NCBI GenBank assembly: GCA_043228905.1 | Contig: JBHGNT010000005.1 | Span: 23,374,001 to 23,438,000 of the forward strand | Direction: 5' to 3' | Origin: Azolla caroliniana | Taxonomy: Eukaryota; Plantae; Polypodiophyta | DNA length: 64,000 nt | Part shown: positions 1,958 through 63,900 of the stretch, one piece after another | How the letters are laid out: each line of letters starts with the position of its first letter | How positions within the stretch are numbered: the stretch's first letter is position 1 | Program-made: the position numbers and the translations under genes | Notes under the pieces: model-generated | What the model was told of the DNA's origin: nothing | The model's input: the letters and a program-made list of their open reading frames with translations, nothing else | Database searches by the model: none

Positions 1958-2767
1958 TGTCGTGCCTTTCGGCTCCGGATCGTTGCGTGAGTCGGGTGGG
2001 AACCACAGAGGTCTTGGACTAGGAGAAAAGAAGTTCGTGAGATAGAGATTAATTATGAGTAAATAGCAAAGAGAAAGATAAGAAACTCGTGAATCACACG
2101 AGTATCCTATTTTAATTGGTACTTAGGGTGTTAAGAGAGAAGTAGATGTATAAATCGTGAATCCCACGAATAATTTTTGTATTGAAAATATATTTAATCC
2201 AAATAATCAACCACCCTTTACATATTTCTCTCCTCCTTATATAAGGAAAGAAGAGCTAAGCATGGCTTCATGCTTTTTTTTTTACAAAAAGTGTTCATGT
2301 CCACTAAATGTGCATGTGATGCTTTTTTATTTCCTAAGTATAGGGCTCATGCACGCTAGATGTGCATGAGTTATTTTTAGTGTCTCGCGTTTTTCTTTTT
2401 CATATATTAAAAAAAATACACGATTTACCTTTTAATAAAGGTATGCATAAATAAAGGTCTTATACGTATTAAATCTATATTTAAAACACTTAAGATAAGT
2501 TAATGTAATGGTAAGGTTGGGGTTTGTCAACGTGGAGGTGCAGAGTTCGAATCACGCCCTGCGCAGTAGTGAGTATTTCCTTTCTTTTTACATTTATGTC
2601 TCTTTATCCGGCTCTTCCTTGCCGGTATGCCGTTTTCTTCCTTGCCGGTATGCCGTTTTCCTCCTTGCCGGTATGCCGTTTTCTTCCGGTTCTCACCGAG
2701 CACTCCATTCTCTATCCCGAGGGACAAAAATATAATTTCCACATAGTGTGCAACCTACACTACGACA
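1958..2767 (-). repeat. 3' LTR of element A
   Basis: Direct repeat of 8435-9244 (offset 6477), TG..CA ends, adjacent to PPT GGAGGGGGCGAG at 2768-2779 (-). Contains a 23-bp unit x3 (2617-2685). Confidence 0.96.
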
Positions 2768-8396: not shown

Positions 8397-8412
8397 CTCC
8401 TTGCCACCCGTC

Positions 8413-8430
8413 TTCACGTCGGGTTCACCA
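8413..8430 (-). promoter_or_regulatory. Primer-binding site, tRNA-Trp (element A)
   Basis: TGGTGAACCCGACGTGAA, 4 nt downstream of the 5' LTR, complementary to the plant tRNA-Trp 3' end (..UCACGUCGGGUUCACCA, from recall). Identical PBS at 34816-34833 and 44752-44769. Confidence 0.85.
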
Positions 8431-8434
8431 ACTG

Positions 8435-9244
8435 TGTCGTGCCTTTCGGCTCCGGATCGTTGCGTGAGTCGGGTGGGAACCACAGAGGTCTTGGACTAGG
8501 AGAAAAGAAGTTCGTGAGATAGAGATTAATTATGAGTAAATAGCAAAGAGAAAGATAAGAAACTCGTGAATCACACGAGTATCCTATTTTAATTGGTACT
8601 TAGGGTGTTAAGAGAGAAGTAGATGTATAAATCGTGAATCCCACGAATAATTTTTGTATTGAAAATATATTTAATCCAAATAATCAACCACCCTTTACAT
8701 ATTTCTCTCCTCCTTATATAAGGAAAGAAGAGCTAAGCATGGCTTCATGCTTTTTTTTTTACAAAAAGTGTTCATGTCCACTAAATGTGCATGTGATGCT
8801 TTTTTATTTCCTAAGTATAGGGCTCATGCACGCTAGATGTGCATGAGTTATTTTTAGTGTCTCGCGTTTTTCTTTTTCATATATTAAAAAAAATACACGA
8901 TTTACCTTTTAATAAAGGTATGCATAAATAAAGGTCTTATACGTATTAAATCTATATTTAAAACACTTAAGATAAGTTAATGTAATGGTAAGGTTGGGGT
9001 TTGTCAACGTGGAGGTGCAGAGTTCGAATCACGCCCTGCGCAGTAGTGAGTATTTCCTTTCTTTTTACATTTATGTCTCTTTATCCGGCTCTTCCTTGCC
9101 GGTATGCCGTTTTCTTCCTTGCCGGTATGCCGTTTTCCTCCTTGCCGGTATGCCGTTTTCTTCCGGTTCTCACCGAGCACTCCATTCTCTATCCCGAGGG
9201 ACAAAAATATAATTTCCACATAGTGTGCAACCTACACTACGACA
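8435..9244 (-). repeat. 5' LTR of element A
   Basis: Direct repeat of 1958-2767, followed by the PBS on the - strand. Confidence 0.96.
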
Positions 9245-9489: not shown

Positions 9490-9884
9490 TGTTGAGAGAG
9501 AGAAATATTGTATTGCAGAGTAAAATGGGTTACAAGGAGTAGGCAATAGACTGCTACAAAATGGCGTTGAACCAATTTAGGTTTGGGATGATTGATAGAT
9601 CCCTATTTATAAGTAATAGAGAACATTCTAGGTCATCCTAGAATGTAGAGTACTCTAGAAGGTTTCTAGAGTATTCTAGAAGGTTCTAGTGTATAGAACA
9701 CTCTAGAATATTCTAGGTTATTCTAGAATGTAGAGTAATATAGAATATCCCTATGATATTAGATTATACATTCTAAAAATTATACATATAAGAATATTAA
9801 TACAATGGTTAAGGATTTGACATGTGTACAACAAGGTCGTAGGTTTAAATCCTTTCGAGGCATGATGTGAGTGTCATCATGACA
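9490..9884 (-). repeat. 5' LTR of the old chromovirus-type element whose gag is at 1399-9406
   Basis: TGTCATGAT start (-) as in family G, TCTAGA-rich U3, TATA, AAATTGGTTCAA inside the LTR and its complement GTTTGAACCAATTT just after the LTR (9476-9489). Confidence 0.78.
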
Positions 9885-9917
9885 CAACCATGACAACTCC
9901 TATGATTTGTCATTTTA

Positions 9918-10324
9918 GGAGGGGGATAGTGTGATGATGGCGACGGTCAACTTGTAATGCATATATGCCAAGAATTGAACCATTAAGCTATCTGATACAC
10001 ATATTTATTACATTGTAATATAATATCATAATTTGCAGAATCCTAGAACATTCTAGAACTTCCTAGAACTTCTTTAGAGAACATTCTAGAAAACCCTCAG
10101 AGAATCCATGATCCACTATATAATGAAGCCCCCTCACTCTCGTCGAACCATTCTGGTTCAACACTAGTCTCGAGTCCTCCAAGTAAGATCTCTCTTGTAT
10201 CTCTTTATCTTAATACATATTTTCTTTAATTGTTACTCTATCTCTCTCTCACTCTCTCCACTAATACCTCATCTATCACTCTTTCTCTCACGCTTTCTAT
10301 TGCTATCTTGTCTCAATTCTGACA
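9918..10324 (+). mobile_element. Orphan 3' LTR with PPT, chromovirus-type
   Basis: GGAGGGGGATAG (cf. G PPT AAGGGGGAGATAG), then TGTGATGAT...TCTGACA (9930-10324) with TCTAGA-rich U3, TATA, TGGTTCAA motif and CT-rich U5. Confidence 0.65.
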
Positions 10325-16446: not shown

Positions 16447-16659
16447 ATGGCTTCGAATGTTACTAGTAACTCCTCTTCTTCTTCGTCTTGCCCGAAGACG
16501 ATGGCCGCCACTTCGAATGGTATATTCCAAGGCGACAACCCTGTCCATTTCGAGCTCCCCTTGCTCATTATCCAGGTCTGCCTCGTCCTCCTCGTCACTC
16601 GGACCCTCGCCGTCATCCTCAAACCCCTCCGGCAACCCCGTGTCATCGCCGAAATCATC
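16447..16659 (+). CDS. CHX: Cation/H+ antiporter (CPA2/CHX family), exon 1
   Basis: MAATSNGIFQGDNPVHFELPLLIIQ...LKPLRQPRVIAEII is a typical CHX N-terminus. GT donor at 16660, phase 0. The start could alternatively be ATG 16501. Confidence 0.9.
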
Positions 16660-16772
16660 GTAAGTTTGCTCTTTAAAATCACCAATTCCCCCAACCCATC
16701 TGAATTTTCAATTTCAAATCCATCCATACCTTACCTACCTCACCCATTGATTCGTATGTAATCTGTCTCTTT

Positions 16773-17100
16773 GGATCCATTTAGCTCATAATTTGATTTC
16801 AATCTGGATTTGTATGCAATCTGTCTCCTTCGATCCATTTAGCCCGTAGTTTGATTTCAATCTGGATTCGTATGCAATCGGTCTCCTTCAATCCATTTAG
16901 CCCGTTGATTTCAATCTGGATTCATACTCCGATCCATTTAGCCCATTGATTTCAATCTGGATTCATACTCCGATTGTGTCAATTCGATCCATTTAGCCCA
17001 TTGATTTCAATCTGGGATTCATACTCCCATCGTGTCATTCGATCCATTTAGCCCGTTGATTTCAATCTGGATTCATACTCCGATTGTGTCAATTCGATCC
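16773..17100. repeat. Degenerate minisatellite (~40-57-bp units, core GATCCATTTAGCCCRTTGATTTCAATCTGGATTC) in CHX intron 1
   Basis: About six visible copies. Confidence 0.85.
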
Positions 17101-17627
17101 GTTTGCTCACCCTAAAGTTTGTCATATATGTTTCCTGATTAAAACAAGAGCTTGAAAATCCATGGATCCATGTTTTCCTTCATCTGATGATTTTGATTTG
17201 GTCCATTTTGGCTCAATAAAATTATATCATATGTTTCCTCATTAAAACGCCAATTCCTAATTCGATTTTATATATTTTAAACCCTCATGTTTCTGGATTC
17301 AATCAAATCCTGCATCTTCTAATGGTACGATTCCCATGGAGGATCGATTCTTTGTTTCATCCCTCATGGATCGCTGGGCATAAGTAAATCTTTTGGGAAT
17401 TTGATCGGAAAAATAAAATAAAAAATATCGATCCGAATCTCTAATCTCTCCATCACTTTGATCTGATACCCTTAGCAAGAATCAGTTTCTCGCTCTCTTC
17501 TTTGTTTCGCTTTTCTTGGAAGACTAGTGAAACCCTAAACCTATGATTCTTGTTTCTCTTTTCTTTTTGTATGTGGCGCCTAAGGAATATGTGGTTCTTT
17601 TTGCTTTTTTTTGTTTGTATGTTGCAG

Positions 17628-18629
17628 GGTGGGATCTTGCTGGGTCCATCAGCGCTAGGCAGAAGCAAGGCATATACAGAGAACATATTCCCAAAGCAGA
17701 GCCTTGTGGTACTGGAGACAGTGGCAGATATAGGGCTCATCTTCTTCTTATTCATGGTAGGGCTAGAGCTGGACCTGAGGTCTCTCCGGAAGACGGGCCG
17801 GCAAGCCATGGCCATAGCGGCGGCCGGGATCACAGTCCCATTCGTGGCGGGGGTCGGGGTCTCGGTGGTCCTACACAACACAATTGTGAAGGAAGGGAGC
17901 TTTGCACCTTTCTTGGTCTTCATGGGGGTGGCCTTGTCCATCACCGCCTTCCCCGTCTTGGCCCGAATCCTGGCCGAAAGGCGCCTCTTGACCACGGATG
18001 TCGGACAAATGGCCATGGCCGCGGCGGCCGTAAATGATGTGGTGGCATGGATCCTTCTCGCCTTGGCCGTGGCCCTCTCGGGATCCAACCAGAGCCCAGT
18101 CATTGCCGTATGGGTCCTCCTCTCCGGCCTCGCCTTCGTGGCCTTCATGTTCCTAGCCGTCAAGCCCCTCATGAGCTTGGTCGCGAGGCAAACCCTAGAG
18201 AACGAGCCCGTCCACGAGGCCTATGTCGCCATCACCCTCGCCGGTGTCCTTATCGCCGGCTTCTGCACCGATGCCATCGGTATACATAGCATCTTCGGGG
18301 CCTTCATCTTCGGGCTCGTGATCCCCAAAGACGGGCCCTTTGCTGGAATCCTTATCGAGAAGATCGAAGACTTTGTCGCCATCCTCCTGCTCCCGCTCTA
18401 CTTCGCCGCGAGCGGATTGAAGACCAATATCGGGTCCATCCATGGGGCCCAGTCGGTCGGCCTCCTGGTCCTCGTAATCACGGTCGCGTGCGTGGGCAAA
18501 ATTGCCGGGACCTTCGTTGTCGCCAAGCTTCACAAGATGAGCGTCCGCAAGTCGCTCACATTAGGGTTTCTGATGAATACCAAAGGTCTAGTCGAGCTCA
18601 TCGTGCTTAACATCGGCAAAGATCGACAT
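17628..18629 (+). CDS. CHX: CHX exon 2 (transmembrane exchanger domain)
   Basis: TTGCAG acceptor at 17627; LSITAFPVLARIL, VNDVVAW, LMNTKGLVELIVLNIG motifs; GT donor at 18630; 334 codons. Confidence 0.95.
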
Positions 18630-18826
18630 GTAAGCATTAAATTTATTTCTGTTTTTCAAGTTCCAAGTTTTTAAAACCCTAAGTCTATGTCCATCCCCCT
18701 ACCCCCCCTCCCCAATTTAGGTTCCTGGCTGTTAAAACCCTAAGTCTATGTCCAAACAATAGAATGCAGACTATCCCTTAAAATTCGCATAGAAACATCC
18801 CGTGTAACCGAGGTTTTATCGCGCAG

Positions 18827-20320
18827 GTTTTGAACGACGAGACATTCGCCATCATGGTCATCATGGCTCTCTTCACGACATTCATCACCACTCCGATCGT
18901 CATGGCGATCTACAAGCCAGCCAGGAATCCTGTACCCTACACGAGGCGGACGCTCTCGGTGCCCGATAGCAAGATGGCCGATTCGGAACTAAGAGTCCTT
19001 GCGTGCGTACACGGCATGCCGAATGTCCATGCCATCATCAATTTGGTGGAGGCGGCTCGGGGCACAAGGAAGAGGCCACTCCACATGTACATATTGCATC
19101 TCCTCGAGTACTCGGAAAGGCCTTCGTCCATCATGAAGCTGCAACGGGTGAGGCGCAATGGGCTCCCGTTCTGGGACAACGAGCACCACGAGATGGACAA
19201 TGTGGTGGTGGCCTTCGAGGCTTATGGCCAGCTTAGCAAAGTCACTGTGCGTCCTATGACGGCCATCACGAGGTTCGACGACATGTACCAGGACATATGT
19301 GCCACGGCTGAGGACAAACGTGCGGCCATCATTGTGTTGCCTTTCCACAAGCACTCAAGGCCATCGGCCATGAGCCATGCCGGGGTCGGCACTTGGGAAG
19401 GTCATAGTGCCGGCCTCCGCCACGTAACCCAGAAAGTTCTCCTACACGCGCCTTGCTCCGTCGGGGTGCTCGTAGATCGAGGCATTGGCATGGCATCTTT
19501 TCCTTCCTCGTCCGTCAACCAACATGTGGCCGTTCTTTTCTTCGGCGGCCCCGATGACCGTGAAGCCCTCGTGTTTGGCTACCGTATGGCCGAACACCCC
19601 GGCATTAAACTCACCATCTTCCGCTTCGTGTTCGCCGACCACCACCATGGTGGCCATGTGGCCATCAACTTGCCTCCATCAGCGAGCAACTCGTTTGCAG
19701 GCGAAAGTGCGGTGCATGTGCCACGGTTCTCGATGAATTCAAGGTTCTCATTGGGCCATGATACGTTCGATTACATGGTGGGGGACATAGATTGGGCAAA
19801 AGAGAGCAAGCTAGACGAGGAGTGCTTGGCATTGGCAAAGAAGCGGATTGTTAGTGATGATGGAGTCCCCACGGCAACGATGGTTATTGAGTTTGAGGAG
19901 AAAGCGGTGACGGACCCCATCTCGGCGGCCTTGGAAATTGCCAAATCCGAAGAGTTCGGCCTTTTGGTAGTTGGAAGAGGAAGGAAGCCATCACCTCTTA
20001 TTGCACCTTTTGCTGGCAAACACGCCGAGTATGTAGAGCTCGGGCCCGTTGGGGAGGCCTTGACGACAACACCCGAGATGAGGTGCTCGGTGCTCGTGGT
20101 TCAACAATACGAACAAGAGCTCATGCAAGTTGCACCCCCATTGACCAAAGTGGTGGATGTGTCCACACCCAAGGCGAGTGGTTTAGTCGCGCTCTCGCCG
20201 AGTGTTGTTGTGATGACAGGCCCATCAGCATCACCTGCTAGCACAACCCCATTGGGTGGGTCTCCGCTTGACATCTCGTCTTCACCCTCACCACTTCTCC
20301 CTAGCAACAAAAGGCTATAG
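18827..20320 (+). CDS. CHX: CHX exon 3 (last TM + C-terminal cytosolic domain); total ~902 aa
   Basis: GCAG acceptor at 18826; VLNDETFAIMV, ELRVLAC, HAPCSVGVLVDRG, FFGGPDDREAL, ELGPVG, SVLVVQQ; stop TAG at 20320. Confidence 0.95.
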   Translation, partial: VLNDETFAIMVIMALFTTFITTPIVMAIYKPARNPVPYTRRTLSVPDSKMADSELRVLACVHGMPNVHAIINLVEAARGTRKRPLHMYILHLLEYSERPSSIMKLQRVRRNGLPFWDNEHHEMDNVVVAFEAYGQLSKVTVRPMTAITRFDDMYQDICATAEDKRAAIIVLPFHKHSRPSAMSHAGVGTWEGHSAGLRHVTQKVLLHAPCSVGVLVDRGIGMASFPSSSVNQHVAVLFFGGPDDREALVFGYRMAEHPGIKLTIFRFVFADHHHGGHVAINLPPSASNSFAGESAVHVPRFSMNSRFSLGHDTFDYMVGDIDWAKESKLDEECLALAKKRIVSDDGVPTATMVIEFEEKAVTDPISAALEIAKSEEFGLLVVGRGRKPSPLIAPFAGKHAEYVELGPVGEALTTTPEMRCSVLVVQQYEQELMQVAPPLTKVVDVSTPKASGLVALSPSVVVMTGPSASPASTTPLGGSPLDISSSPSPLLPSNKRL

Positions 20321-23300: not shown

Positions 23301-24848
23301 CCACAAGAGGTTGAATTTGATCTATGGGAGAGAACCATGTCAAGGATAAAATCTGGGATTGTTTCATGTTTATGATTTCAATAAGATGGTGTATATCACT
23401 GACTAACAACCTAAAGAAGAACTCTAAAGAATCTCTATCTTGAAAAAATATATAGTATAAGAAACCTTGAGAAGAACATGTATATGAATTTTGTCATTTT
23501 TATTGATTCAATTGTCTAAAGAGTTTAAGAAATGAACCCATCCTTAGAAGTCCATCACCATCAATTCAACCCATTTTCTCTGACATCTTCTATAGATTCC
23601 CTACCAATGTAGTAAGCATAAAAAATGTTGTCCCTTATCCACATTGTAAGCATTAACAAGATGCTCCCTAGCTATTGGTTAAACACTCTTGTTCAGTTTT
23701 GGAGGAAAATTGAAAATCTTAATTTTGGTTTCGTCACTTTCCTCGCTATTTAAAGTCTACGATTTTATCCTAAGGAAATGCCATATCTTTCCTTCAGTGC
23801 TCTACGCTTATATGGACAAACTCCTCCCACGTTGTCTTGAGAAAATTGCATTAGACATCAAATTGCAAGAATGAGTTGTTTGTAATGAAAAATGCATATT
23901 TGGCTTTGTGATATATGTCTAGTTGACTCATTTTATCATATTGAATCATGCATAGTATGAATACAAATAAATTGTTATTACATTCTTCGCCTTACGAGGA
24001 AAATATTTAGAGCCCATTGTGCATGAAATGAAGTTTACAATTCAATATGTGTTTTAAGGTTTGGAAGTTTGATTTTGGACATTATGGATCAATCATTGTT
24101 ACGAGGATGACCATAATTTATCGCGTACCTATCCTGGAGTAAGTTGTATCGTAGTATTCTATACACGAGGATAAAGTGTGAGGGTTAATCGAGAGTATAA
24201 AAAAAACAGTATTACTTTTAATTCTATTAATTGAGACAATCTATAAGGGCCAAGTGTGAACTTGCTTGTGGACCTTAGCTCTAGCTATAAATATGAGGTC
24301 TAACCATTATCACGATATGGTGACATCAAATACATAGTTGACGAGTATTGAACTTACAACCTCACATGAACAAGATGTCATGCTTGACCATTTTATATAT
24401 AATACTTTTGTATTGTATAGTCTAACATATAATAAATTTCAAAATCAAAATATTCTAGTTGTTAGTATACTCTAGAAATATTATATTGTATATTCTACAT
24501 GAGTACATTCTAAAGATATTTAATATTGAAACTTGTATAAATACTTATAACTTCCTTAATTCCATTCAAGGGATTCAACGCCAATCATTAACACATCAAT
24601 CTAGTATTCTTGTTCCATTACATTTTGTGTCATTCTTCATCTTTGTCTTCATGCTCTCCATAGCTCCCTAAGCTCATAGTCTCATCACTCACAACTTCTA
24701 GAGTTCCTAGCCTCATCACCTCTAGTTCTACGTTCATCATCCATGCTCCATCATAGTTTACGGTTGGTGTGTTTGTGATAGTTTAAATCCCTTTGAACCA
24801 TCACAAGTTGCTTCCAAATATGAGACAATGCATTTCTATTCACATACA

Positions 24849-36094: not shown

Positions 36095-38937
36095 CTTCGA
36101 ATAAATCAACAGATCATCTAGATAAATGATCAAACAGATATCCAAGAGGTCTCTGAATATATCATTTGCCATGTGTTGGAAGACTGCGTGTGCATTGGTT
36201 AGGCCAAACGGCATAACAGTATACTCGAAATGCCCATACCGCGTGCGAAAGGCGGTCTTCCACTCATCTCCCGGTCGGATCCGCACGAGATTATATGCTC
36301 CTCGTAGGTCGATTTTAGTAAAAAACTTGGCACCATTAACTCCCTCTAAAAGACTTGATATAAGAGGAAGTGCATACCTATTCCGGATGGTGACTTTATT
36401 CAATCCGCGGTAATCAACGACAAGACGAAGTGAGCCATCTTTCTTCTTGACAAAGAAGATGGGTGCACCGGCCGGAGATTTCGAATGGCGGATGAACCCG
36501 CTTGCCAAGTTCTCCTCTATGTAGGCTCGAAGGACTTCTAACTCGGTGGGTGACAAGTTGTAAATTGGTCCCCATGGTGGCTCGGTTCCTGGTTGTAAAT
36601 CGATGGGACAGTCATAGGGACGGTGATGAGGAAGGGTACCGGCTTTTACCTTGTCAAATACATCGGCATAAGGATGATATTTTGCTGGAAGTTGTACTGA
36701 GGAGTCCTTCTTAATAGTGCTGGAGGGATGTACTGATATTGCAAATAGGAACATTGCCTCCTTGGGTCCTTCTTCGCGTAGTTGATGGAGTGAAATGGTC
36801 GAAACTTGGTGAGTTGATTCTTGGGGTGGTCGATATCAGACTTCTCTTGTTCTCCAATCTATGGCTGGATTATGTAATTCAAACCAAGGTAATCCTAGGA
36901 CAATGGGATTCTTTGGACTACTAATTATATTAAATGATATTACACACACAAAACTACCTAGGACAACTTGAATGGGTTCTGATTCTTCTACAATACTCCC
37001 GGAAGCAATGGGACGACCATCAATGACTACTACAGATGCGGGACAAGGAAGTTTACTTAAGGATATCTGAGAAGCTTGGGCAAAATTTCGATCCATGAAA
37101 CAGGAATTAGCTCCGGAATCTAAAAGTGCTAGGATGGGTACTGGGGGAGTACTTTTAGTACTAACAATGACTTGGGCTAGGAACACATTGCTAACTTGCT
37201 TGGAAGGAATGGGACCACTAATGGGCTGTACAGATCTAGGGCTGCTGTCCAACCAAACGACTCCTATTTTGGCTAGACTCAATCGTTTAACTCTTCATCT
37301 AATTGACTAAGGATTTCAAATTTATTTGAGATACTTGGGTTATTAGTACTATGAATACTATCAAACACTCTATTAGTATTATTAATACTATCAGACACTC
37401 CTAAGGGAAGAATTGACTCGGGTTTAGTACAGGCTACAATTTGATTTACCTGTCGTCTTGGCCTATGGGGACAATTGATTGCGATATGCCCTGGTCCACC
37501 GCAATAAAGACATAATCGATTTGCACGTCGTCGTTGCTTTTCTTCTTCCGATAACGGGTTGCGTCGACGCATGGTATCGATCTCCATCAGTGTCGAAGTA
37601 TTTGCTTGAGGAGTGTCTCGTGCAAATGTCTAGCCGCGACTGCGGCGTAAGTGGGCTCCGGCCTAGCGCGTGGTATCTGTAATTGATGTTTCGAACGCCG
37701 TTCGAAGAGGCGGTTGTCACATCGGACCGCTCGACTGATTGCCTCCGTAAGAGACTTTGGTTCTTCGGGGAAGGTTAGAAGTAGATCTTTGACATCATTT
37801 CGCAGGCCATAGCGAAACTGCTCCATTAGTGCTTGATCATCCCAGGGTATGTCGGAAGCGAGTAGGCGGAAATCCGCCGCATACGCAGAGGTTGGACGAT
37901 CGCCTTGACGCAATCGTCGGATCTTGTTGATTGCTGTCCTGATGCTGTCGGTGTCTCCAAAGCAGGCTTTGAACTCACTAATAAAATCTTCAAAGTTATT
38001 AAGCAAGGGTGATTGTTTTTCTAGAAGCGGAGCGAACCATGCTAAGGCTGAGCCGCTAAGCAACGTGCCTATTAAGCCGACTCGGGATGCATCGGTGGGG
38101 TATTAGGAAGGATGCATTTGGAGGACTAATCGTACCTAATTAAGGAATCCCCTGAATTGCGATCGCGTTCCATCAAATTTCACAGGAAGTCCAATCTTAG
38201 GCTCTTTGTGAAATCCTTGGGGACTTGATCCTTGTTGTTGTAATGCCGCTTCGAGTTGTTGCACCCGTAACGCTAACTCCCCATGTTGTTGCTACGTTTG
38301 TTGCTTTTCTAGAGCGATTTGTTGCAGATCCCCTATCAACCGTTGGTTTTCTTGTTCCAGGGCAACGAACTTTTCTTTTAGGCACTGTAACTCGGAGAAA
38401 ACGGATTGATATTCTTGGGCGCTAACAGTAGCCATAGTAGAGGGAAAAGGATAGGAGGATGAGGGAGAACGACAAGTAGGCTGGAGGAAAGAGGAAAAAA
38501 TTGGTTCAAACTGTCAGGAATAGTACTAAAGCAGAGATGGAATTAGTACTAAGAAGAGTAGTACTATTAGTACTAAGAGGACGGGACTACGTAAGATTCC
38601 CGAGAGAGAGAAAGTGAGAAGAGGAAAGAGAGAGAGATAGGATGATGACAACAACTCTTATATTATATGAAAGATAATTACAAATCGGCTAAGAGGCTTA
38701 AGACTGGTGTTGAACCAATTTGGTTCAAAACAATGCCTTGTGCCTCCTTTTATAGTGTTTTTAGGAATAATCCTGAAGCTTCTAGAATGTTCCAGAGAGA
38801 TCTGGAATATACATCAATTTTATATGATAAAGCATAAATGAAAATAATATCCTATAAAATAAAATTCATAGTCTAATGGTAAGAGCTCGACCCATGTAGC
38901 ATAAGGTCATGGGTTCGAGTCTTGCCATATCATGACA
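36095..38937 (-). mobile_element. Element G': 3'-truncated chromovirus-type Gypsy (5' LTR, gag, PR, partial RT) in the integrase of B
   Basis: LTR 38512-38937, gag 37279-38435, PR (LLDSGA) and RT to YLDD are nearly identical to G. A deletion at ~36095 removed its 3' half together with adjacent Copia sequence. Confidence 0.92.
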
Positions 38938-54299: not shown

Positions 54300-56944
54300 G
54301 ACCGTCACTGCTCCACTTCTTGTTCACTCCTACACCACGCTTTCGAAAAAGCGGTCGTAAAGGGGAGGATAATGTCACGACATAGTGACATCAAATACAG
54401 AGTTGGTGAGGATTGAACCTACAACCTCACATCAACAAAATGTCATGCTAGACCATTTTGATATGAGCATGTATTTGTATTCTAGTTTTTATTGTATAGT
54501 CTAGCATATAACAAATTTCAGAATTAGAATACTCTAGTTAGTATATTCTAGAAATATTGTATGGTATATTCTAGACGAGTATATTCTAGAGATATTCAAT
54601 CTCGCAACTTGCATAAATACTTCTAACCTCCATGGTCCCTTTCAGAGGATTCAATACCAGTCATTGACACATTAATCTAGTATTCTTGTTCCATTCCATT
54701 TTGTCTCGTTCTTCATCTTTGTCTTCATGCTCTCCATAGCTCCCTAAGTTCATAGTCTCATCACTCACAGCTTCTAGAGTTCCTAGCCTCGTCACTTCCA
54801 GTTCCACGTTCGTACTCCATGCTCCGTCGTACTTTGGTTCGTCATCCATGCTCCGTCGTAGTTTGCGGTTGGTGTGTCCATGATAGCCACCCTCAGTAGG
54901 GACTTGCATTGACTATGTGGAGACTACGATTTTGTGGTGAACATTCTCTTGTAGCAAGTATGCCAGTACGAGGTAAGACTCGATGCCATGGCGGTGGTAT
55001 GGGACACCGATCAATGCTTGAGTACGTCTCGATCTCTTCCCTTGGGGTTGGTCGGGTGGATCGACACCCTTCTCTCTCTCTCTCATCTACCTATCATTTA
55101 TTTCCTGGTTTCATGCTTACATTAGGAACAATCTCTAACAATAGTTGTGAGGGAATTCAGAAACTTAGGTATCAAGAAAGAATGTTCTTGAAAATATCAT
55201 AGTGTTAATGGACTCCCTAGGTTTTTGGAATCACCCAAAATGAAAAATAAGAGGGAGTTGTAAGACTGTCAGAGTGAAGGTTTGTTGAGAATCAACCTCA
55301 ACCTAGTCTAATGTGTGAACACACCCTTGAGAGTGTATGAACACTCAAAGGTCAAAAGTCACACCACTACTCTCTAAACATATTTGCTGCCAATATGACG
55401 ACACGAAAGCTTCAACTCTGCCAAGAGTTAAACAACATCCAACAACGAGACATGTCCATCACAAGACAGAAGCCATCAAGGAACCTTCGGAAGAAACGGG
55501 AGCTTCCATTCCGGTCCGAGGCGACAAACCTCGACTAAATGCGGATATTGTGGCAAAATTGGCTACCACAAAGAAGAGTGCCGAAAGAAGAAGTGTGAAT
55601 CGGCTTCCACAAGCTGACAGCTCAGAAACTATGACACAAACTTTGACTATGAAGACCATGGTAGAATGTTCGTGATGAGACATAGAGCAAATTCTATGTC
55701 AGCTTCTACTTCGACTAATGTCTCCAATCCGGAAGATGTATGGTTTGTTGACTCCGGTGCTTCGAACCATATGACGTCTCATCAAGAATGGTTCCAAGAC
55801 TTACGAGAGTTGGATCAACTCAGCTATGTTGAAACCGGAGACGACACCACTCATCCGATTCGGCATGTCGGCAATGTCCCATTCGGGAAAGAAGGTGAAC
55901 AAACTTGTATAAAAAATGTCTTGCATGTACCCACCATAACGAAGAATTTGGTCTCAATTGGCCAAATTGTGGAGCAAGGGATCCACGTTCAATTCAACCA
56001 AGGTGGTTGCTTCATCGAGAAGGAAGGCCAAATGATTGCTCGTGGTCGAAAGGAAGGCTGAATGTTTATCCTCGAATTGAACAAGGTAAAATCAGCCATG
56101 TTTGCAAAGGGCCTCAAAGTCGACACGGACGTAGAGCTATGGCATAAAAGAATTGGCCATTCAATCTCAACAAAGTCAAGGTGATGCAATCGAAAGGAGT
56201 CATCATTGGACTTCCGACATTCAAGTAGAAAGAGATTGAAGAAGTATGTGCAGCATACCAATTCGGCAAGCAACATCGGCACCCGTTTCTGAAGGAGAGG
56301 AACGTGAGCAAAGGCCTATCGGCACCCGTTTCTGAAGGAGAGGAATGTGAGCAAAGGCCTATTGGACGTAGTCCATTCGGATGTGTGGGGACCGGCACAG
56401 ACGGCCACATTCGGAGGATGTCGGTACTATGTGTCATGATATGGCAAGACTCGAACCCATGACCTTATGCTACATGGGTCGAGCTCTTACCATTAGACTA
56501 TGAATTATAATTTATAGAATATTATTTTCATTTATGCTTTATCATAGAAAATTGATGTATATTCCAAATCTCTCTAGAACATTCTAGAAGCTTCAGGCTT
56601 ATTCCTAAAAACACTATAAAAGGAGGCACAAGGCATTGTTTTGAACCAAATTGGTTCAACACCAGTCTTAAGCCTCTTAGCCGCTTTGTACTTATCTTTC
56701 ACATAATATATTAGCTGTTGTCATCATCTCTCTCTCTCTCTCGTTCTCGCTATTTCTCTCTCTCCTCTTCTCACTTCCTCTCTCGGGAGTCTTACGTAGT
56801 CCCGTCCCCTTAGTACTAATAGTACCACTCTTCTTTAGTACTAATTCCATCTCTGTTTTAGTACTATTCCTGACAGTTTGAACCAATTTTTTCCTCCAGC
56901 CTACTTGTCACTCTCCCTCATCCTCCTACCCTTTTCCCTATACT

Positions 56945-58102
56945 ATGGCTACTGTTAGCGCCCAAGAATACCAATCCGTTTTCTCCGAGCTACAGTGCCT
57001 AAAAGAAAAGTTTGTTGCCCTGGAACAAGAAAACCAACGGTTGATAGGGGATCTGCAACAAATCGCTCTAGAAAAACAACAAACGCAACAACAACATGGG
57101 GAGTTAGCGTTACGGGTACAACAACTCAAAGCAGCGTTGCAACAACAAGGATCAAGTCCCCAAGGATTTCATAAAGAGCCCAAGATTGGACTTCCTGTGA
57201 AATTTGATGGAACGCAATCGCAATTCCGGGGATTCCTTAATCAGGTACACTTAGTCATCCAGATGCATCCTTCTCGATATCCCACTGATGCATCTCGAGT
57301 CGGCCTAATAGGCACGCTACTTAGCAGCTCAGCCTTGGCATGGTTCGCTCCGCTTCTAGAAAAACAATCGCCCTTGCTTAATCACTTTGAAGATTTTATT
57401 GGTGAGTTTAAAGCCTGCTTTGGAGATACCGACAGCATCAGGACGACGATCAACAAGATCCGAAGATTGCGTCAAGGCGATCGTCTAGCCTCTGCCTACG
57501 CGGCAGATTTCCGTCTACTCGCCTTAGATATCCCCTGGGATGATCAGGCCCTCATGGAGCAGTTTCGCTACGGCTTGCGCAACGATGTCAAAGACTTGCT
57601 TTTAACCTTCCCCGAAGAACCAAAGTCTCTTACAGAGGCAATCAGTCGAGCGGTCCGATGCGACAACAGCCTTTTCGAACGGCGTTCGGAACATCAGTTA
57701 CAAATACCACGCTCTCGGCCGAAACCCACATATGCCTCAGTCACGGCTAAACCGTTTGCATGCGATGTACCTCAAGCCAATATTCCGACACCGATGGAGA
57801 TCGACACCATGCGTCGACGCGGCCCGTTATCGGAAGAAGAAAAGCAACGACGACGTGCCAATCGATTATGTCTTTATTGCGGTGGACCAGGGCATATCGC
57901 CATCAATTGTCCCCATAGGCCAAGAAGACAGGTAAATCAAATCGTCGCATGTATTAAACCTGAGTCAATTCTTCCCTTCGGAGTGTCTGATAGTATTAAT
58001 AGTACTAATAGAGTGTCAGATAGTATTCATAGTACTAATAGCCCAAGTATCTCAAATAAATTTGAAATCCTTAGTCAATTAGATGAAGAGTTAAACGATT
58101 GA
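56945..58102 (+). CDS. gag: Gag of element G (385 aa, open)
   Basis: Coiled-coil N-terminus, PVKFDG, LRQG...AYAADF, PTPMEID and zinc knuckle CLYCGGPGHIAINC. Confidence 0.9.
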   Translation: MATVSAQEYQSVFSELQCLKEKFVALEQENQRLIGDLQQIALEKQQTQQQHGELALRVQQLKAALQQQGSSPQGFHKEPKIGLPVKFDGTQSQFRGFLNQVHLVIQMHPSRYPTDASRVGLIGTLLSSSALAWFAPLLEKQSPLLNHFEDFIGEFKACFGDTDSIRTTINKIRRLRQGDRLASAYAADFRLLALDIPWDDQALMEQFRYGLRNDVKDLLLTFPEEPKSLTEAISRAVRCDNSLFERRSEHQLQIPRSRPKPTYASVTAKPFACDVPQANIPTPMEIDTMRRRGPLSEEEKQRRRANRLCLYCGGPGHIAINCPHRPRRQVNQIVACIKPESILPFGVSDSINSTNRVSDSIHSTNSPSISNKFEILSQLDEELND

Positions 58103-60636
58103 GTCCAGCCAAAATAGGAGCCGTTTGGATGGACAGCAGCCCTAGATGTGTACAACCCATTAGTGGTTCCATTCCTTCCAAGCAAGTTAGCAATGTGTTC
58201 CTAGCCCAAGTCATTGTTAGTACTAAAAGTACTCCCCCAGTACCCATCCTAGCACTTTTAGATTCCGGAGCTAATTCCTGTTTCATGTATCGAAATTTTG
58301 CCCAAGCTTCTCAGATATCCTTCAGAAAACTTCCTTGTCCCGTATCTGTAGTAGTCATTGATGGTCGTCCCATTGCTTCCGGGAATATTGTAGAAGAATC
58401 AGAACCCATTCAAGTTGTCCTAGGTAGTTTTGTGTGTGTAATATCATTTAATATAATTAGTAGTCCAGAGCATCCCATTGTCCTAGGATTACCTTGGTTT
58501 GAATTACATAATCCAGCCATAGATTGGAGAACAAGAGAAGTCCGATATCGACCACCTCAAGAATCAACTCACTGAGATTCGACCATTTCACTTCATCAAC
58601 TACGCGAAGAAGGACCCAAGAAGGCAATGTTCCTATTTGCAATATCAGTACATCCTTCCAGCACTATTAAGAAGGACTCCTCAGTACAACTTCCAACAAA
58701 ATATCATCCTTATGCCGATGTATTTGACAAGGTAAAAGCCGGTACCCTTCCTCATCACCGTCCCTATGACTGTCCCGTCGATTTACAACCAGAAACCGAG
58801 CCACCATGGGGACCAATTTACAACTTGTCACCCACCGAGTTAGAAGTCCTTCGAGCCTACATAGAGGAGAACTTGGCAAGTGGGTTCATCCGTCATTCGA
58901 AATCTCTGGCCGGTGCACCCATCTTCTTTGTCAAGAAGAAAGATGGCTCACTTCGTCTCGTCGTTGATTACCACGGATTGAATAAAGTCACCATCCGGAA
59001 TAGGTATGCACTTCCTCTTATATCAAGTCTTTTAGAGCGAGTTAATGGTGCCAAGTTTTTTACTAAAATCGACCTACGAGGAACGTATAACCTCGTGCGG
59101 ATCCGACCGGGAGATGAATGGAAGACCGCCTTTCGCACGCGGTATGGGCATTTCGAGTATACTGTTATGCCGTTCGGCCTAACCAATGCACCCGCAGTCT
59201 TCCAACACATGGCAAATGATATATTCAAAGACCTCTTGGATATCTGTTTGATCATCTATCTGGATGATCTATTGATTTATTCGAAGACCCAGGAAGATCA
59301 CAATTCTCATGTACTATTAGTACTAAAGCGACTATGCGAGAATGGTCTTTATGCCAAGCTAGAAAAATGTAGCTTTGATTGCAAGCAAGTGGAATTTCTA
59401 GGCTACGTCATCTCCTCAAAGGGCATCGCCATGGATCCAGCTAAAATCCAAACTGTACTAGAGTGGCAAATTCCACGGTCGGTACGAGATGTACAATGTT
59501 TTCTAGGTTTTGCTAACTTCTACCGTAAGTTTATACAGGATTACTCGAAGATTATTTTACCTCTCACACAACTTACGAAGAAGGGCCAAGCATTTCTTTG
59601 GTCCATCGAAGCAGATATGGCTTTTCGGCATCTTAAGAAAGCCTTTACATCAGCACCGATTCTAGCTCATGTGGATACAAGAAAACCATTCATCATGGAG
59701 GCCAACGCATCAGATTTCGCCCTCGGTGGCATCCTTTCTCAACAAGGAGATAAAGAAGAGTTGCATCTGATGGCTTTCCATTCGTGCAAATTTGATGTCG
59801 CAGAAATCAACTACGAAATACATGACAAGGAAGTATTAGCCATCATGGATTCATTTGTGCAATGGCGGCATTTCTTAGAGGGCTCTCCACATCAGGTCAT
59901 TGTCTTTAACGATCATAAAAATCTTGCTTATTTTCAGAACGCTCGCGTACTAAATCGATGGCAAGCTCGGTGGGCGCAATTCCTCACGCGTTTCAATTTC
60001 AAAATCACATATCGACCGGGGAAGCAGCAAGGAAAAGCAGATGCACTATCACGGTGTTCATATCTTGCACCTCGTCCTGGTGACGCAACATTTGATAATC
60101 AAAAGCAAGTAATCTTGGGACCAACACGATTGCACACGACGCGGATTTTTCACACCCCGATGGATTCAGGGATTACCGATGACATACGTGCAACCTTGAA
60201 AACGGATAGTTTTGCTCAAGACATCCTGGCGCACATTGATACTTCTAGGGCATCCTGTTCTCGGTCTCAACAACCAATTATTGACTACTGACAATTCGAA
60301 TATCATGATGGTTTGTTATTCTTTAAAATGTGTGTATATGTCCCCAATTGCTCCTGTCACCTTCAAATCGTCCAGCATTGTCACAACACCCATACGGCGG
60401 GACATTTCGGTAGTACTAACCCGGAGTATGAAGTTGCTGCCATCCTCGATTCCAAACTTGTTCGCAACCACCTTTATTACTTCGTCGATTGGCTCAGTTA
60501 TAGTCCGAGCGAACGTACTTGGGAACCCGTCGAGCATGTTGCCAATGCACAGGATCTTCTTGCTGATTTCCACCGAAAGTATCCGGACAACCCTGGTCAA
60601 CAATCAGCGTCGACTCTTTCCACTCGTCGTCTTTAA
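58090..60636 (+). pseudogene. pol: Pol of element G (PR, RT, RNase H, integrase stub, chromodomain) with premature stops
   Basis: [37 protein letters not shown]...VDW...TWEP; stops at 58573 and 60289. Confidence 0.92.
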
Positions 60637-60938
60637 GGGGGAGATAGTGTCATGATATGGCAAGACTCGAACCCATGACCTTATGCTACATGGGTCGAGC
60701 TCTTACCATTAGACTATGAATTATAATTTATAGAATATTATTTTCATTTATGCTTTATCATAGAAAATTAATGTATATTCCAAATCTCTCTAGAACATTC
60801 TAGAAGCTTCAGGCTTATTCCTAAAAACACTATAAAAGGAGGCACAAGGCATTGTTTTGAACCAAATTGGTTCAACACCAGTCTTAAGCCTCTTAGCCGC
60901 TTTGTACTTATCTTTCACATAATATATTAGCTGCTGTC

Positions 60939-60977
<39 letters not shown>

Positions 60978-63900
60978 CTCGCTATCTCTCTCTCTCCTCT
61001 TCTCACTTCCTCTCTCGGGAGTCTTACGTAGTCCCATCCCCTTAGTACTAATAGTACTACTCTTCTTTAGTACTAATTCCATCTCTGTTTTAGTACTATT
61101 CCTGACACTATGTTACCTTCATCGATGACTTCTCTAGATACACATGGATCTTTCCCATGAGGATGAAGAGTGAAGTGTTTTCACACTTCCAAAAATTCAA
61201 AAGTGAAGTCGAAAAGACAACTAGCCGCCATGTACGATGTCTTCAGTCAGACGGAGGAAAGGAATACTTCTCTGATGTGTTCACGACATACCTTCGACAA
61301 GAAGGAACTTGGCGAGAATTCACTTGCCGACACACACCGCAATAGAACGGTGTAGCGGAACACAAGAATTGGCACATCCTTGAAGTAGCAAGGGCCATCC
61401 TAAATGAGAAGCATATGCCCAAGTCATATTGGCCAGAAGCTGCAAATACAACCATCTACCTCATGAACCGGTGCACAACATCCAAAGTGCACGAGGTCAC
61501 CCTGCACGAGAATTACTATGGGAAGAAGCCGGATCTATCCCATGTGAGGATATTTGGCTCCATTGCATACGTCCACATTCTCGATGAGAAGCGGCAGAAG
61601 CTTGACCCAAAATCAAAGAAGCGCATCCTCGTGGGGTACTCACTGGAGCAAAAGGGGTACATGTGCTTCAACCCTTCTATTCAGAAGGTTTGTGTAAGTC
61701 GGGATGTCGTCTTTGACAAATCGACATCATGGTACAAACCCGGGCCGACTACTCCCGAACCATCTACGAACGACCTTGGCAACACAAAAGACGATGGTCA
61801 ACGAAGGTCAATACTCGAAGAGAGTCCGATATCAACTAGATTGAGCAAACCATAAGAGTGTCCAAGCAGCCAAAGCACATCTCGGCCAAGTCCAAAGATG
61901 GAGAAAGGGAAGGCCAAAATGTCGGAATATGAAGACAATCAATCTGACGACAACGAATCGACTTGCTCACTCGGTAGTGAGTTTGATGGCTTTAATGTGC
62001 CTCTTATGAGGTCAGCCGGACTTAAGAAAGCACTCACATTGGCAAACGAAAAACTCTATCGCTCCAACTGAGAGAAGAATCCAGTTTGCCGATTCGGCTA
62101 CAACGACTATATGGTATACCACTATGCCTTTATGATGAAGGTGGCAGCAGTTCGAGAACCGGAGAGCTTTGCCGAAGCCGCTAAAGATCCGCAATGGGTC
62201 GAAGCAATGAACGAGGAGATGCAAGCTCTCAAAAAGAATGAGACATGGGATCTTGTCCCTCACTCACCGCATAAGAAGGCAATCGGCTGCAGATGGATAT
62301 ACAAAGTGAAGTATAATGCCGACGGTTCCGTCAACCGTTACAAAGCTCAACTCGTAGCAAAGGGCTACACACAAACACAAGGAGTCGACTATGAAGAGAC
62401 CTTTGCCCCGGTGGCAAAGATGACAACCGTGCAAACCGTGATAGCGCTTGTTGTAGAGAAATGGTGGCACCTCCACCAAATGGATGTCAAGAATGCCTTT
62501 CTTCAAGGCGAATTAGAAGAGGAGGTGTACATGGTATAACCACTCGGCTTCGAATCCAACATTCATCCGAAAGCCGTTTGCCGACTCAAGAAGCCTCTCT
62601 ACGACCTTGCGCAAGAACCATGTGCTTGGCACTCGAAGATAACACAATATCTTCATCGAATGGGCTTCCGAATGTCAAATTTTGACAATTCTCTTTTTGT
62701 AAGAAGCGATTCTGAAAGTTTGATTGTCATCATCATATACGTGGCTCATTGGAATTGAGCATCTAGTCGACATCAACAGGGTCAAGTCCCTCCTCTCCAG
62801 CAAATTCGAGATGACGAACATGAAAGAGCTTCATTACTTCCTTGGCATTGAGGTAATCTAGACTCCAACCGGAGTAATGATCTCTCAACCACACTACATC
62901 CTCAACTTGTTATACAAGTTCGGGATGACCAAGTGCAAATCTGTGGCAACCCCTCTCGATTGAAACCTCAAACTGGATGCCAACTCCGGCACCACAGAGT
63001 GTGAGCCGACTCAGTATCGACGTTTGATCAGGAGCCTCATCTACCTCACGATCACTTGACCCGGTCGGCCTCCTTAGCCAATTCATGCAAGCTTTGCGAG
63101 ATATCCATTCAGATTGTGCTAAGCGTGTGCTACGATACATGAGTGGAACGATGGACTATGACATTCTCTATAAGTCGGTCACGCCAATTCAACTCGAAGG
63201 GTACATAGATGTTGATTGGGCTGGCTACAAAACCTATTGATGATCAACCTCTAGTTTCGTCTTCTCCCTCGGAAGTGGAGCCATCTCTTGGAGTAGTACG
63301 AAGTAACCAACCGTCGTTCTTCCGAACACAGAGGCCGAATATAGAGGCGCGACGGTGGCTGCATGTGAAGCCATATGGCTCAAGAGGATATTGACGGATT
63401 TGGGCATTCCCATCAAAGATCTGATTTCCCTTTATTGCGACTACATGAGCAATATTCATATGGCTCGGAACCCGGTGTTCCATGCACGCACGAAGCATAT
63501 TGAAGTGTACTATCACTTCATTCAAGAGCGCGTTCAAGCCGAAGATGTCGACCTTCAACACATCAACATGAATCTTTAGACTACCAACATCTTCACCAAA
63601 GCCCTAGGAGACGACAAGCTTCGGCAATTCATGTTAGACCTTGGATTGATGATCCCTAACTTTCCAAGCTTGAGGGGGAGTACATCCAAACCGGGTATCA
63701 GCCGAAGTGGACACCAAACAAGAGAGAACCGAATACCGTCTGAACCGGGTACCAGCCGAAGCAGACAAGCCGACCCAACTTGAGCTTGAGGGGGCATGTT
63801 GAGAATCAAGCTCAACCTAGTCTAATGTGTGAACACACCCTTGAGAGTGTATGAACACTCAAAGGTCAAAAGTCACACCACTACTCTCTACACATGAACT

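What the first reader, a model, noticed from the sequence alone, without database searches (positions are those of the whole stretch)
38869..38922. tRNA-type Pol III A-box/B-box module, always antisense, in the U3 of several unrelated LTR families
Seen: the G-family LTR reads TAGTCTAATGG-TAAGAGCTCGACCCATGTAGCATA-AGGTC-ATG-GGTTCGAGTCT, ending 15 nt from the LTR terminus (also 56447-56500 and 60663-60716 on -). This matches the A-box (TRGYNNARTGG) and B-box (GGTTCRANTCC) with tRNA spacing and a variable-loop-like AGGT. Modules with the same spacing (+/-1 nt) but different intervening sequence occur in the LTR at 9798-9852 (B-box GGTTTAAATCC, consistent with CpG decay), in both H LTRs (~24345-24400 and ~54409-54463 on -), in element A, and weakly at ~9968-10020. 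All are antisense to their element. A full cloverleaf does not form, so these are not tRNA genes. Established: A/B boxes bind TFIIIC, tDNAs and B-boxes can act as chromatin barriers in yeasts, and Cassandra TRIMs carry 5S Pol III units in their LTRs. Inference: a retained Pol III promoter or TFIIIC site that insulates the LTR promoter in heterochromatin or produces antisense RNA. I do not know of a description of this, but I could not search.
Basis: partly seen in the sequence, partly recalled or inferred. Interest (0 to 1): 0.85.

Follow-up and report, generated by a model that had tools for sequence, protein, structure and literature searches.

The report
Fern retrotransposons carry outward tRNA promoter
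The end repeats of a large group of protein-coding jumping genes in a fern keep, at their outer edge and facing away from the element, just the promoter signals of a tRNA gene, which likely bind the tRNA-gene transcription machinery and would shield the element's own promoter from the silenced DNA it lands in.

Summary
The module is real and conserved. Host: a fern. G, B, C and probably H are not unrelated: they are self-priming Tcn1-type chromoviruses; only A (Phygy) is another lineage, and its sister D lacks the module. Relatives fetched by Gag similarity, with LTRs located without looking at the module, carry it antisense in U3, 10-48 nt from the outer LTR end: 22 of 28 with at most 4 mismatches (sense strand: 0 of 28 at 3 or fewer), A-B gap 32-33 nt in 25 of 28. 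Identity between families: boxes 79-85%, the unscanned AGGT before the B box 84%, spacer and flanks 34-39%; no cloverleaf. That is the pattern of DNA read by TFIIIC, with an AT-rich stretch where TFIIIB would sit. Binding, transcription and function are untested. Best reading: a portable boundary protecting the LTR's Pol II promoter. Closest known: Helenus TRIMs (sense, non-autonomous; membership fails). Ten literature searches found no description. This scan noted a similar module in chromovirus LTRs of a gut-fungus-like genome (unchecked); its landing-pad role found no support here.

The parts
38869..38879 (+). A box of the G1 module (0 mismatches)
38904..38907 (+). AGGT at tRNA positions 44-47, just before the B box; not part of the scan pattern, 84% identity between families
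   Evidence: TFIIIC contact at this place in yeast, PMC11724288
38912..38922 (+). B box of the G1 module (1 mismatch), 15 nt from the outer LTR end
38829..38868 (+). AT-rich 40 nt on the inner side of the A box, where TFIIIB would bind (inferred)
   Evidence: 81% AT versus 58% in the rest of U3 in 17 related LTRs
38512..38937 (-). 5' LTR of G1, a 3'-truncated Tcn1-type element (36095-38937) nested in a Copia element
38749..38754 (-). TATA box of the G1 LTR (consensus match), about 115 nt inward of the A box, facing the other way
38710..38721 (-). 12 nt complementary to the PBS: predicted self-primer and start of R, which places the module in U3
   Evidence: Tf1-type self-priming, PMC7175516, PMC6317226
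38498..38509 (-). self-priming PBS of G1
56447..56500 (-). module in the 5' LTR (56432-56875) of G2 (56432-61107, +; 5-bp TSD; integrase missing)
60663..60716 (-). module in the 3' LTR (60648-61107) of G2
9798..9852 (+). module in the 5' LTR (9491-9885, -) of Tcn1-type element B (Gag remnant at about 1399-1957, interrupted by element A)
9971..10020 (-). degenerate module (28-nt gap) in the 3' LTR (9930-10325, +) of element C, which shares LTR motifs with the Tcn1 families
54409..54463 (-). module in the 3' LTR of H (54375-about 54883, +), probably a self-priming family without coding remnants seen
24344..24398 (-). decayed module in the 5' LTR of H (about 24309-24782, +); 6 mismatches, seen only by homology
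8978..9031 (+). module in the 5' LTR (8435-9244, -) of Phygy element A (1958-9244; identical LTRs, long ORFs, NCGN 4-bp TSD); a T5 run follows 30 nt after the B box
2501..2554 (+). module in the 3' LTR (1958-2767, -) of element A

Best explanation
The LTRs of autonomous, self-priming Tcn1-type chromoviruses of this fern, and of one Phygy family, carry a conserved, outward-facing tRNA-type promoter skeleton in U3 that likely binds TFIIIC and loads TFIIIB and would act as a portable boundary, keeping silent chromatin and read-through transcription from the flank away from the element's own Pol II promoter. Shown: the module, its place (10-48 nt inside the outer LTR end, 114-208 nt outward of the TATA box), its orientation, selective conservation of A box, positions 44-47 and B box at 32-33 nt, loss of the tRNA stems, an AT-rich inner flank, intact chromodomain-bearing ORFs in carriers. 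Inferred from yeast and human work: TFIIIC binding (about 0.8) and, because the A box and spacing are kept although the B box alone is enough to hold TFIIIC, TFIIIB loading (about 0.65). Inferred, untested: the benefit. Chromodomain integrases are proposed to aim at H3K9-methylated chromatin, tRNA genes and TFIIIC sites are barriers and Pol II roadblocks in yeast, and a self-priming element needs its exact 5' end, so a boundary at the outer edge of the 5' LTR is what such an element would gain most from. Origin: likely a captured tRNA gene or SINE head that has lost everything TFIIIC does not read.
For: Module-blind set: 78 metagenome loci fetched by Gag, 28 LTRs located by PPT, TATA and R motif. 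Best antisense A+B match: <=3 mismatches in 21 of 28, 4 in 1, 5 in 6; sense strand <=3 in 0 of 28; at most 1 of 40 shuffles as good in those 22; gap 32 or 33 in 25 of 28 although 28-45 was allowed; all 23 LTRs of the main clade (Gag 62-88% identical to G) carry it. Identity among 12 cluster representatives: fixed A-box sites 79%, B-box sites 85%, positions 44-47 84% (G46 and T47 12 of 12; not in the scan pattern), spacer 34%, flanks 37-39% (19 non-redundant modules give 87, 84, 74 [44-48], 33, 30-39%). Gap s.d. 0.5 nt against 10 nt (B box to LTR end) and 26 nt (A box to R) in 17 LTRs; inner 40 nt 81% AT versus 58%. No consensus fold; cloverleaf 48% paired versus 46% shuffled, 55 of 500; modules pair 6-14 of 21 positions, two host tRNA genes 18 and 19. 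G subfamilies diverge beside the A box but keep it, varying at its free positions (loose ends); B-family and, in two related organisms, A-family majorities read a full B box. PMC11724288 passages: TFIIIC contacts a base upstream of the B box, changes at 44-47 alter binding and transcription, 32 bp is the commonest A-B distance, the A box is needed for TFIIIB loading, not for TFIIIC binding. Barrier and roadblock roles: PMC12409998, PMC4228148. Chromodomain in 4 of 4 Pol proteins tested, 3 carriers and 1 non-carrier; MAGGY precedent PMC3350952.
Against: No binding, transcript or chromatin data. The same module sits in the 3' LTR, where a stable TFIIIB complex would stand head-on in the path of the element's own Pol II. 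Pol III complexes can also silence neighbouring Pol II promoters (tgm silencing). Chromodomain-bearing relatives do without it: L075/L077, L084/L085, L086, Selaginella SM-Tcn1 (read by eye), 10 of 10 distant IMG/VR elements; and Phygy A has it without a chromodomain hit. Picking the best match inflates identity at scanned positions; only 44-47, the gap and the AT flank are free of that. The families share one ancestor and most loci are collapsed assemblies that probably come from one host group, so counts are not independent. A weak D-stem remnant persists (62% paired; 6 of 500 shuffles for double changes, 81 of 500 for pairing). Barrier activity of TFIIIC has not, in the passages read, been shown in plants.
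Confidence: 0.45

Rival explanations
1. Pol III transcribes the module and the antisense RNA is the point: from the 3' LTR it runs over the PPT and integrase end, from the 5' LTR into the flank, and tunes the element through small RNA or a primer-like role.
For: A complete type 2 promoter is kept. Element A has a T5 run 30 nt behind the B box, which would give a discrete RNA of about 100 nt. The Leishmania tRNA-like unit is transcribed (abstract).
Against: No conserved terminator in Tcn1 modules: first T4 at 0 to over 1000 nt or absent. The transcribed spacer and 3' flank are as divergent as unselected DNA and have no common fold.
Confidence: 0.15
2. The module is an upstream activating part of the LTR promoter: TFIIIC/TFIIIB, or the TBP and open chromatin they bring, directly drive the divergent start site, as divergent tRNA-like A/B boxes do for trypanosomatid snRNA genes; no barrier is involved.
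For: Same geometry as the Leishmania U2 locus: a divergent tRNA-like unit upstream whose boxes are required (abstract of PMC4950102).
Against: The A-box-to-start distance is free (153-247 nt to the R motif) while TATA-to-R is fixed at 39-40 nt (the latter partly by the 22-45 search window), so the LTR keeps an ordinary Pol II core promoter; the trypanosomatid genes are Pol III genes.
Confidence: 0.13
3. The module dampens the element: tRNA-gene-mediated silencing of the neighbouring Pol II promoter, or a roadblock in the 3' LTR, keeps transcription low or stress-dependent and so limits harm to the host.
For: tgm silencing and Pol II roadblocks by Pol III complexes in yeast; the module lies in the path of the genomic transcript in the 3' LTR.
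Against: Carriers are very abundant (3189-5055 contigs laid on the G LTR per run) and include a copy with identical LTRs (A); retention of a brake in all 23 main-clade LTRs needs element-level selection that is harder to explain.
Confidence: 0.08
4. [quoted passage not shown]
For: Antisense orientation in U3 and strict tRNA spacing are what pairing with a tRNA predicts; the HIV-1 precedent was seen as a title only.
Against: Most carriers self-prime and need no tRNA. Pairing would tolerate G-to-A and T-to-C changes in the module through G.U wobble, and transitions dominate in these LTRs, yet G18, G19, G46, G53, T47, T54, T55 are 12 of 12 (five of the seven are scanned positions). No single tRNA body is kept.
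Confidence: 0.07
5. A neutral relic: a SINE head or tRNA pseudogene fell into an ancestral U3 and is merely being carried.
For: Several relatives lack it or hold only a B-like remnant (L084/L085, L075/L077); individual copies decay (H1, C); a second capture sits in a PR-RT linker.
Against: Spacer and flanks are at 34-39% identity while boxes and positions 44-47 stay at 79-85%, and indels avoid the A-B interval.
Confidence: 0.06
6. A landing pad or decoy for Pol III-targeting retrotransposons (Ty3-like), as earlier notes of this scan propose for gut-fungus chromovirus LTRs.
For: Ty3 and Tj1 target Pol III genes; earlier findings e1-10420520 and e1-10420559 (unchecked); one contig (L076) has a Copia piece joined in U3 about 30-100 nt inward of where the A box would be.
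Against: None of the 9 module-bearing LTR copies in the window has an insertion in U3; no pile-up of contig ends there (table 6 empty; table 7 shows 24 of 799 rows); 0 of 15 outer flanks hold an A/B pair with <=3 mismatches within about 300 nt. It would be a by-product, not a reason for retention.
Confidence: 0.06

Closest known systems
Helenus / TRIMp3 (Kojima 2024, PMC10886601; parts 1-4 of 6, searched passages and supplement passages read)
   Same: tRNA-derived sequence inside LTRs, A and B boxes conserved, mostly no functional tRNA; AGGTC-like stretch before the B box in several supplement sequences; origin by SINE or tRNA capture proposed; one plant family (Selaginella).
   Different: Helenus are non-autonomous (311-1263 bp); in the LTR entries seen the tRNA part is in sense, towards the LTR 3' end, and is thought to be the element's own promoter. 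Here: autonomous elements with long gag/pol ORFs, antisense, at the outer end of U3, acceptor stem gone, separate TATA and self-primer kept. The paper notes that 'not a few' Repbase LTRs resemble part of a tRNA but does not describe them, so a passing precedent may exist.
Cassandra and Ajax TRIMs (as described in PMC10886601)
   Same: Pol III promoter carried in an LTR, widespread in land plants including ferns (Cassandra).
   Different: 5S-derived type 1 promoter that transcribes the TRIM itself; non-autonomous.
tDNA and ETC boundaries of yeast and mammals (PMC12409998, PMC4228148; passages)
   Same: TFIIIC-bound boxes acting as heterochromatin barriers, insulators and Pol II roadblocks: what the module likely works like.
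   Different: Fixed host loci, not carried by a mobile element; ETC sites have a B box without TFIIIB, whereas this module keeps the A box and tRNA spacing.
Divergent tRNA-like A/B units upstream of trypanosomatid U2 snRNA genes (PMC4950102; abstract)
   Same: A non-tRNA A/B unit, head to head with a neighbouring transcription unit, serving it.
   Different: There the neighbour is a Pol III gene; here it has a TATA core promoter and the distance varies by about 100 nt.
HIV-1 U3-R tRNA-Lys3-like sequence (Piekna-Przybylska 2010; title seen in a reference list only) and Ty3 split primer site (recalled)
   Same: tRNA-complementary sequence in U3.
   Different: Those match the element's own primer tRNA and act as RNA; most carriers here self-prime and keep only promoter-type positions.
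Tcn1 clade and Phygy clade (Neumann 2019, PMC6317226; Novikova 2010, PMC2864245; passages and one supplement)
   Same: Host elements: self-priming chromoviruses with chromodomain; Phygy with NCGN target.
   Different: Neither paper's searched passages mention Pol III boxes in the LTR; Novikova found no Tcn1 in ferns by PCR; SM-Tcn1's LTR shows no module by eye.

Membership tests
Type 2 (tRNA-type) Pol III promoter | A box and B box consensus on one strand | tested here: met
Type 2 (tRNA-type) Pol III promoter | A-B spacing in the tRNA range (32 bp commonest in yeast) | tested here: met
   32-33 nt in 25 of 28
Type 2 (tRNA-type) Pol III promoter | AT-rich upstream DNA for TFIIIB (plant requirement recalled) | tested here: met
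   81% versus 58% AT in 17 LTRs; related sequences, not independent
Type 2 (tRNA-type) Pol III promoter | T-run terminator close behind | tested here: inconclusive
   T5 at +30 in A; no fixed position in Tcn1 modules
Type 2 (tRNA-type) Pol III promoter | TFIIIC/TFIIIB/Pol III occupancy and a transcript | not testable with these tools
   needs ChIP and stranded short-RNA data
tRNA gene | cloverleaf with four stems | tested here: not met
Helenus / TRIMp3 | tRNA-derived sequence with A/B boxes in the LTR | tested here: met
Helenus / TRIMp3 | short non-autonomous element without coding capacity | tested here: not met
   carriers L012, L028, L046, L080 and A have long gag and pol ORFs
Helenus / TRIMp3 | Pol III promoter oriented to transcribe the element | tested here: not met
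   antisense in all carriers; sense in the Helenus LTR entries seen
ETC site | B box without a working A box, TFIIIC without TFIIIB | tested here: not met
   A box conserved at fixed distance; occupancy itself not testable
Tcn1 chromovirus (G, B and relatives) | self-priming PBS complementary to the R start | tested here: met
   12-13 nt exact in G1, G2, B; 11 nt with 1 mismatch in H
Tcn1 chromovirus (G, B and relatives) | chromodomain at the integrase end | tested here: met
   Pfam Chromo in 4 of 4 relatives; window copies lack that part
Tcn1 chromovirus (G, B and relatives) | RT phylogeny with reference Tcn1 elements | not tested
   only by-eye likeness of Gag, RT and R motif to SM-Tcn1; no reference set in the tree
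Phygy (A, D) | 4-bp NCGN target duplication, no chromodomain, short element | tested here: met
   TSD CCGT (A) and GCGT (D); no Chromo hit in A
Phygy (A, D) | RT phylogeny with reference Phygy elements | not tested
   closest named homologues are unnamed liverwort proteins

The most novel reading that the evidence does not exclude
Chromoviruses that land in silent chromatin carry their own Pol III-machinery boundary: an outward-facing, TFIIIC/TFIIIB-bound promoter skeleton in U3 that licenses the LTR's Pol II promoter, acquired more than once (fern Tcn1, fern Phygy, perhaps gut-fungus chromoviruses) and scattering thousands of mobile TFIIIC sites through the genome.
Probability: 0.35. Interest if true: 0.85.

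Novelty: new variant of a known kind. Interest (0 to 1): 0.66.

Why it matters
How chromodomain retrotransposons stay transcribable after inserting into heterochromatin is an open question; a conserved cis element read by TFIIIC gives a concrete handle that point mutants and ChIP can test. It would extend tDNA/TFIIIC boundary biology, known from yeast and animals, to plants and to a mobile carrier, and it would mean that very abundant LTRs supply a large share of a fern genome's TFIIIC sites. It also widens the known use of Pol III promoters in LTRs from 'promoter of a miniature element' to 'accessory part of an autonomous one'.

Tried and rejected
No whole genome is held for this window, so no genome-wide LTR scan was possible. 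Expression: no RNA holder listed; the runs laid were contigs, which cannot show strand or start. Rfam and ARAGORN gave no tRNA match. A first pair count looked significant (1 of 500) only because two real tRNA genes were in the alignment; without them it fell to 55 of 500. A recalled likeness of A's module to its primer tRNA was dropped: related organisms mostly read the generic B-box letter at 9031. Variant rows over the G module (1 of 40 shown rows in 54 of 481 nt) are weak evidence: 97 rows were not shown and alignments were clipped at 56488. Viral contigs gave no Phygy or Tcn1-Gag relatives; genome contigs gave one locus without the LTR start. No Phygy loci beyond the window were fetched, so the A-versus-D contrast rests on two families. 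tRNA-gene targeting by these elements: 0 of 15 flanks; tRNA genes in 3 of 60 loci scanned lie at no fixed distance. Negative controls without the module: 2 of 2 D LTRs and 4 of 4 Copia LTRs (best 5-7 mismatches). The Gag tree (38 rows) leaves the deep forks open, so one old gain with losses cannot be told from repeated gains. The HIV-1 paper was not held. Literature searches that found no description of this module; subscription journals and Repbase were not searched, and five DOC supplements of PMC2864245 could not be read.
Full report
Setting. The window is plant DNA: the one host gene (a cation/H+ exchanger, about 16449-20320) has its best named matches in the ferns Adiantum and Ceratopteris at 63-65%, so the host is a fern other than those. 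The rest is nested LTR retrotransposons. No assembly of the host is held.

Observation. The module is at the stated place and is not chance: three copies with 1 mismatch and one with 2, against 0 and 0.125 per shuffled window. It is not a tRNA gene.

What carries it. G1, G2 and B have a primer site complementary over 12-13 nt to a sequence about 33 nt behind their TATA box, the Tf1-type self-priming arrangement (passages of PMC6317226 and PMC7175516). That sequence marks the start of R and puts the module in U3. G and B Gag fall in one clade and resemble Selaginella SM-Tcn1 by eye. C shares LTR motifs with them; H self-primes more weakly (11 nt, 1 mismatch) and no coding remnant was recognised. 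Element A is different: 4-bp NCGN target duplication, tRNA-type primer site (isotype Trp recalled), DUF4100 Gag, no chromodomain hit, which fits Phygy. Its sister D has the same target and primer site but no module, nor have four Copia LTRs. A's LTR shows no similarity to Tcn1 U3 beyond the boxes.

Independent test. An alignment of 50 Gag proteins fetched 78 metagenome loci, the best 80 matches of 299. In 28 places an LTR could be located from PPT, TATA and R motif alone; the other loci lack the LTR start or failed that pattern. The best antisense match in U3 had at most 3 mismatches in 21, 4 in one and 5 in six; the sense strand never reached 3; the gap was 32 or 33 nt in 25 of 28 with 28-45 allowed. 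All 23 LTRs of the main clade carry it. Of 14 clusters at 80% identity, 11 have a member at 4 or better, one more (L083, with sister L080) is recognised by a weight matrix, and two (L075/L077, L084/L085) lack it. L086, SM-Tcn1 (by eye) and 10 distant IMG/VR elements, which look fungal to me, lack it too. These contigs are collapsed repeats, most from one series and probably from the window's own host group, so breadth beyond this fern group is not shown. Laid contigs show the G, A and B LTRs to be abundant in four differently labelled organisms' or samples' runs (X1, X3, X11, X12).

Anatomy of conservation. In tRNA numbering, 12 module-blind representatives keep T8, A14, T16, G18, G19, then AGGT at 44-47, then G53-T54-T55-C56-R57-A58; identity is 79% and 85% at fixed box sites and 84% at 44-47, against 34% in the anticodon-arm region and 37-39% in the flanks (similar for 19 non-redundant modules). 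Positions 44-47 were not in the scan. In yeast TFIIIC a winged-helix residue reads a base in that stretch and changes at 44-47 alter binding and transcription; the A box is needed to load TFIIIB rather than to hold TFIIIC; 32 bp is the commonest A-B distance (passages of PMC11724288). Indels avoid the A-B interval (s.d. 0.5 nt) but not its neighbours (10 and 26 nt), and the 40 nt on the inner side are 81% AT against 58%. Stems are gone: no consensus fold, 48% versus 46% pairing, a weak D-stem remnant only. G subfamilies diverge right beside the A box yet keep it; the B family and the A family in two related organisms mostly read a full B box. This is selection on a DNA protein-binding site, most simply TFIIIC.

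How it likely works. The module faces outward from the outer edge of the LTR, with the TFIIIB side toward the Pol II TATA box 114-208 nt away. Carriers are autonomous, with long ORFs and a chromodomain; the related MAGGY chromodomain binds H3K9me2/3 and is proposed to aim integration at heterochromatin (PMC3350952). In yeast, tRNA genes and TFIIIC sites stop heterochromatin spreading and block Pol II read-through and 5'-extended transcripts (PMC12409998, PMC4228148). A self-priming element depends on its exact 5' end. I therefore commit to a portable boundary (0.45). Against it: the 3' LTR copy would obstruct the element's own transcript, Pol III complexes can also silence neighbours, and chromodomain-bearing relatives manage without. 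Rivals: antisense RNA (no conserved terminator), direct activator as at trypanosomatid U2 genes (abstract), brake, tRNA-binding RNA as in HIV-1 U3-R (title only; disfavoured by self-priming and by intolerance of wobble-type changes), relic (disfavoured) and landing pad (no support; one ambiguous case).

Comparison and novelty. Helenus TRIMs are the nearest described kind, but are non-autonomous and, in the entries seen, sense-oriented; two defining features fail, so this is not a Helenus. Ten searches of the open library found no description of antisense A/B modules in autonomous LTRs; Kojima's remark that not a few Repbase LTRs resemble part of a tRNA leaves room for an unseen precedent. Earlier notes of this scan report similar boxes in chromovirus LTRs of a gut-fungus-like genome and a decaying antisense half-tRNA in another LTR (unchecked); no look-alike of this LTR sequence was on record.

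Verdict. A real, selectively conserved cis element in a lineage of autonomous plant retrotransposons, with a strong TFIIIC signature and an untested function: new variant of a known kind, interest 0.66.

Noticed in passing
L028 2953-3005, L054 7399-7451, L046 2653-2712; also L031, L048, L052: A second antisense A/B module lies in frame inside the protease-RT linker of one Tcn1 subclade, whose linkers are longer (101-108 aa versus 58-98 in most others); 2-5 mismatches, B core kept. Likely a separate capture.
   Followed up: partly
window 38703-38713 region and equivalents in B and C: The self-primer at the R start of several families is itself B-box-like in the sense direction (1 mismatch in G), but not in SM-Tcn1; may be coincidence.
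   Followed up: no
L035 128-201, L065 3892-3963, L054 96-5317: Host tRNA-Asp and tRNA-Pro genes and an array of about eight degenerate, intron-bearing tRNA-like copies lie beside Tcn1 pieces, at no fixed distance.
   Followed up: partly
L076 about 1240-1314: A reversed Copia gag-protease piece is joined into U3 some 30-100 nt inward of where the A box would be; single case, may be an assembly chimera.
   Followed up: partly
SM-Tcn1 supplement of PMC2864245: By eye, the sequence after the 5' LTR is complementary to a stretch behind the TATA box, i.e. self-priming, which that paper reported as not found.
   Followed up: no
window 56432-61107: G2 has a 5-bp target duplication and 95% identical LTRs but no integrase region: an internally deleted copy.
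   Followed up: no
window 9885-9930: The 5' LTR of B and the 3' LTR of C stand head to head 45 nt apart, so their two modules point at each other.
   Followed up: no
collection-wide: Tcn1-type elements are abundant in this fern although a PCR survey had not found them in ferns.
   Followed up: partly
window 16771-17077: Short tandem repeats of about 53-58 nt in the first intron of the exchanger gene give weak (4-mismatch) A/B-like hits.
   Followed up: no
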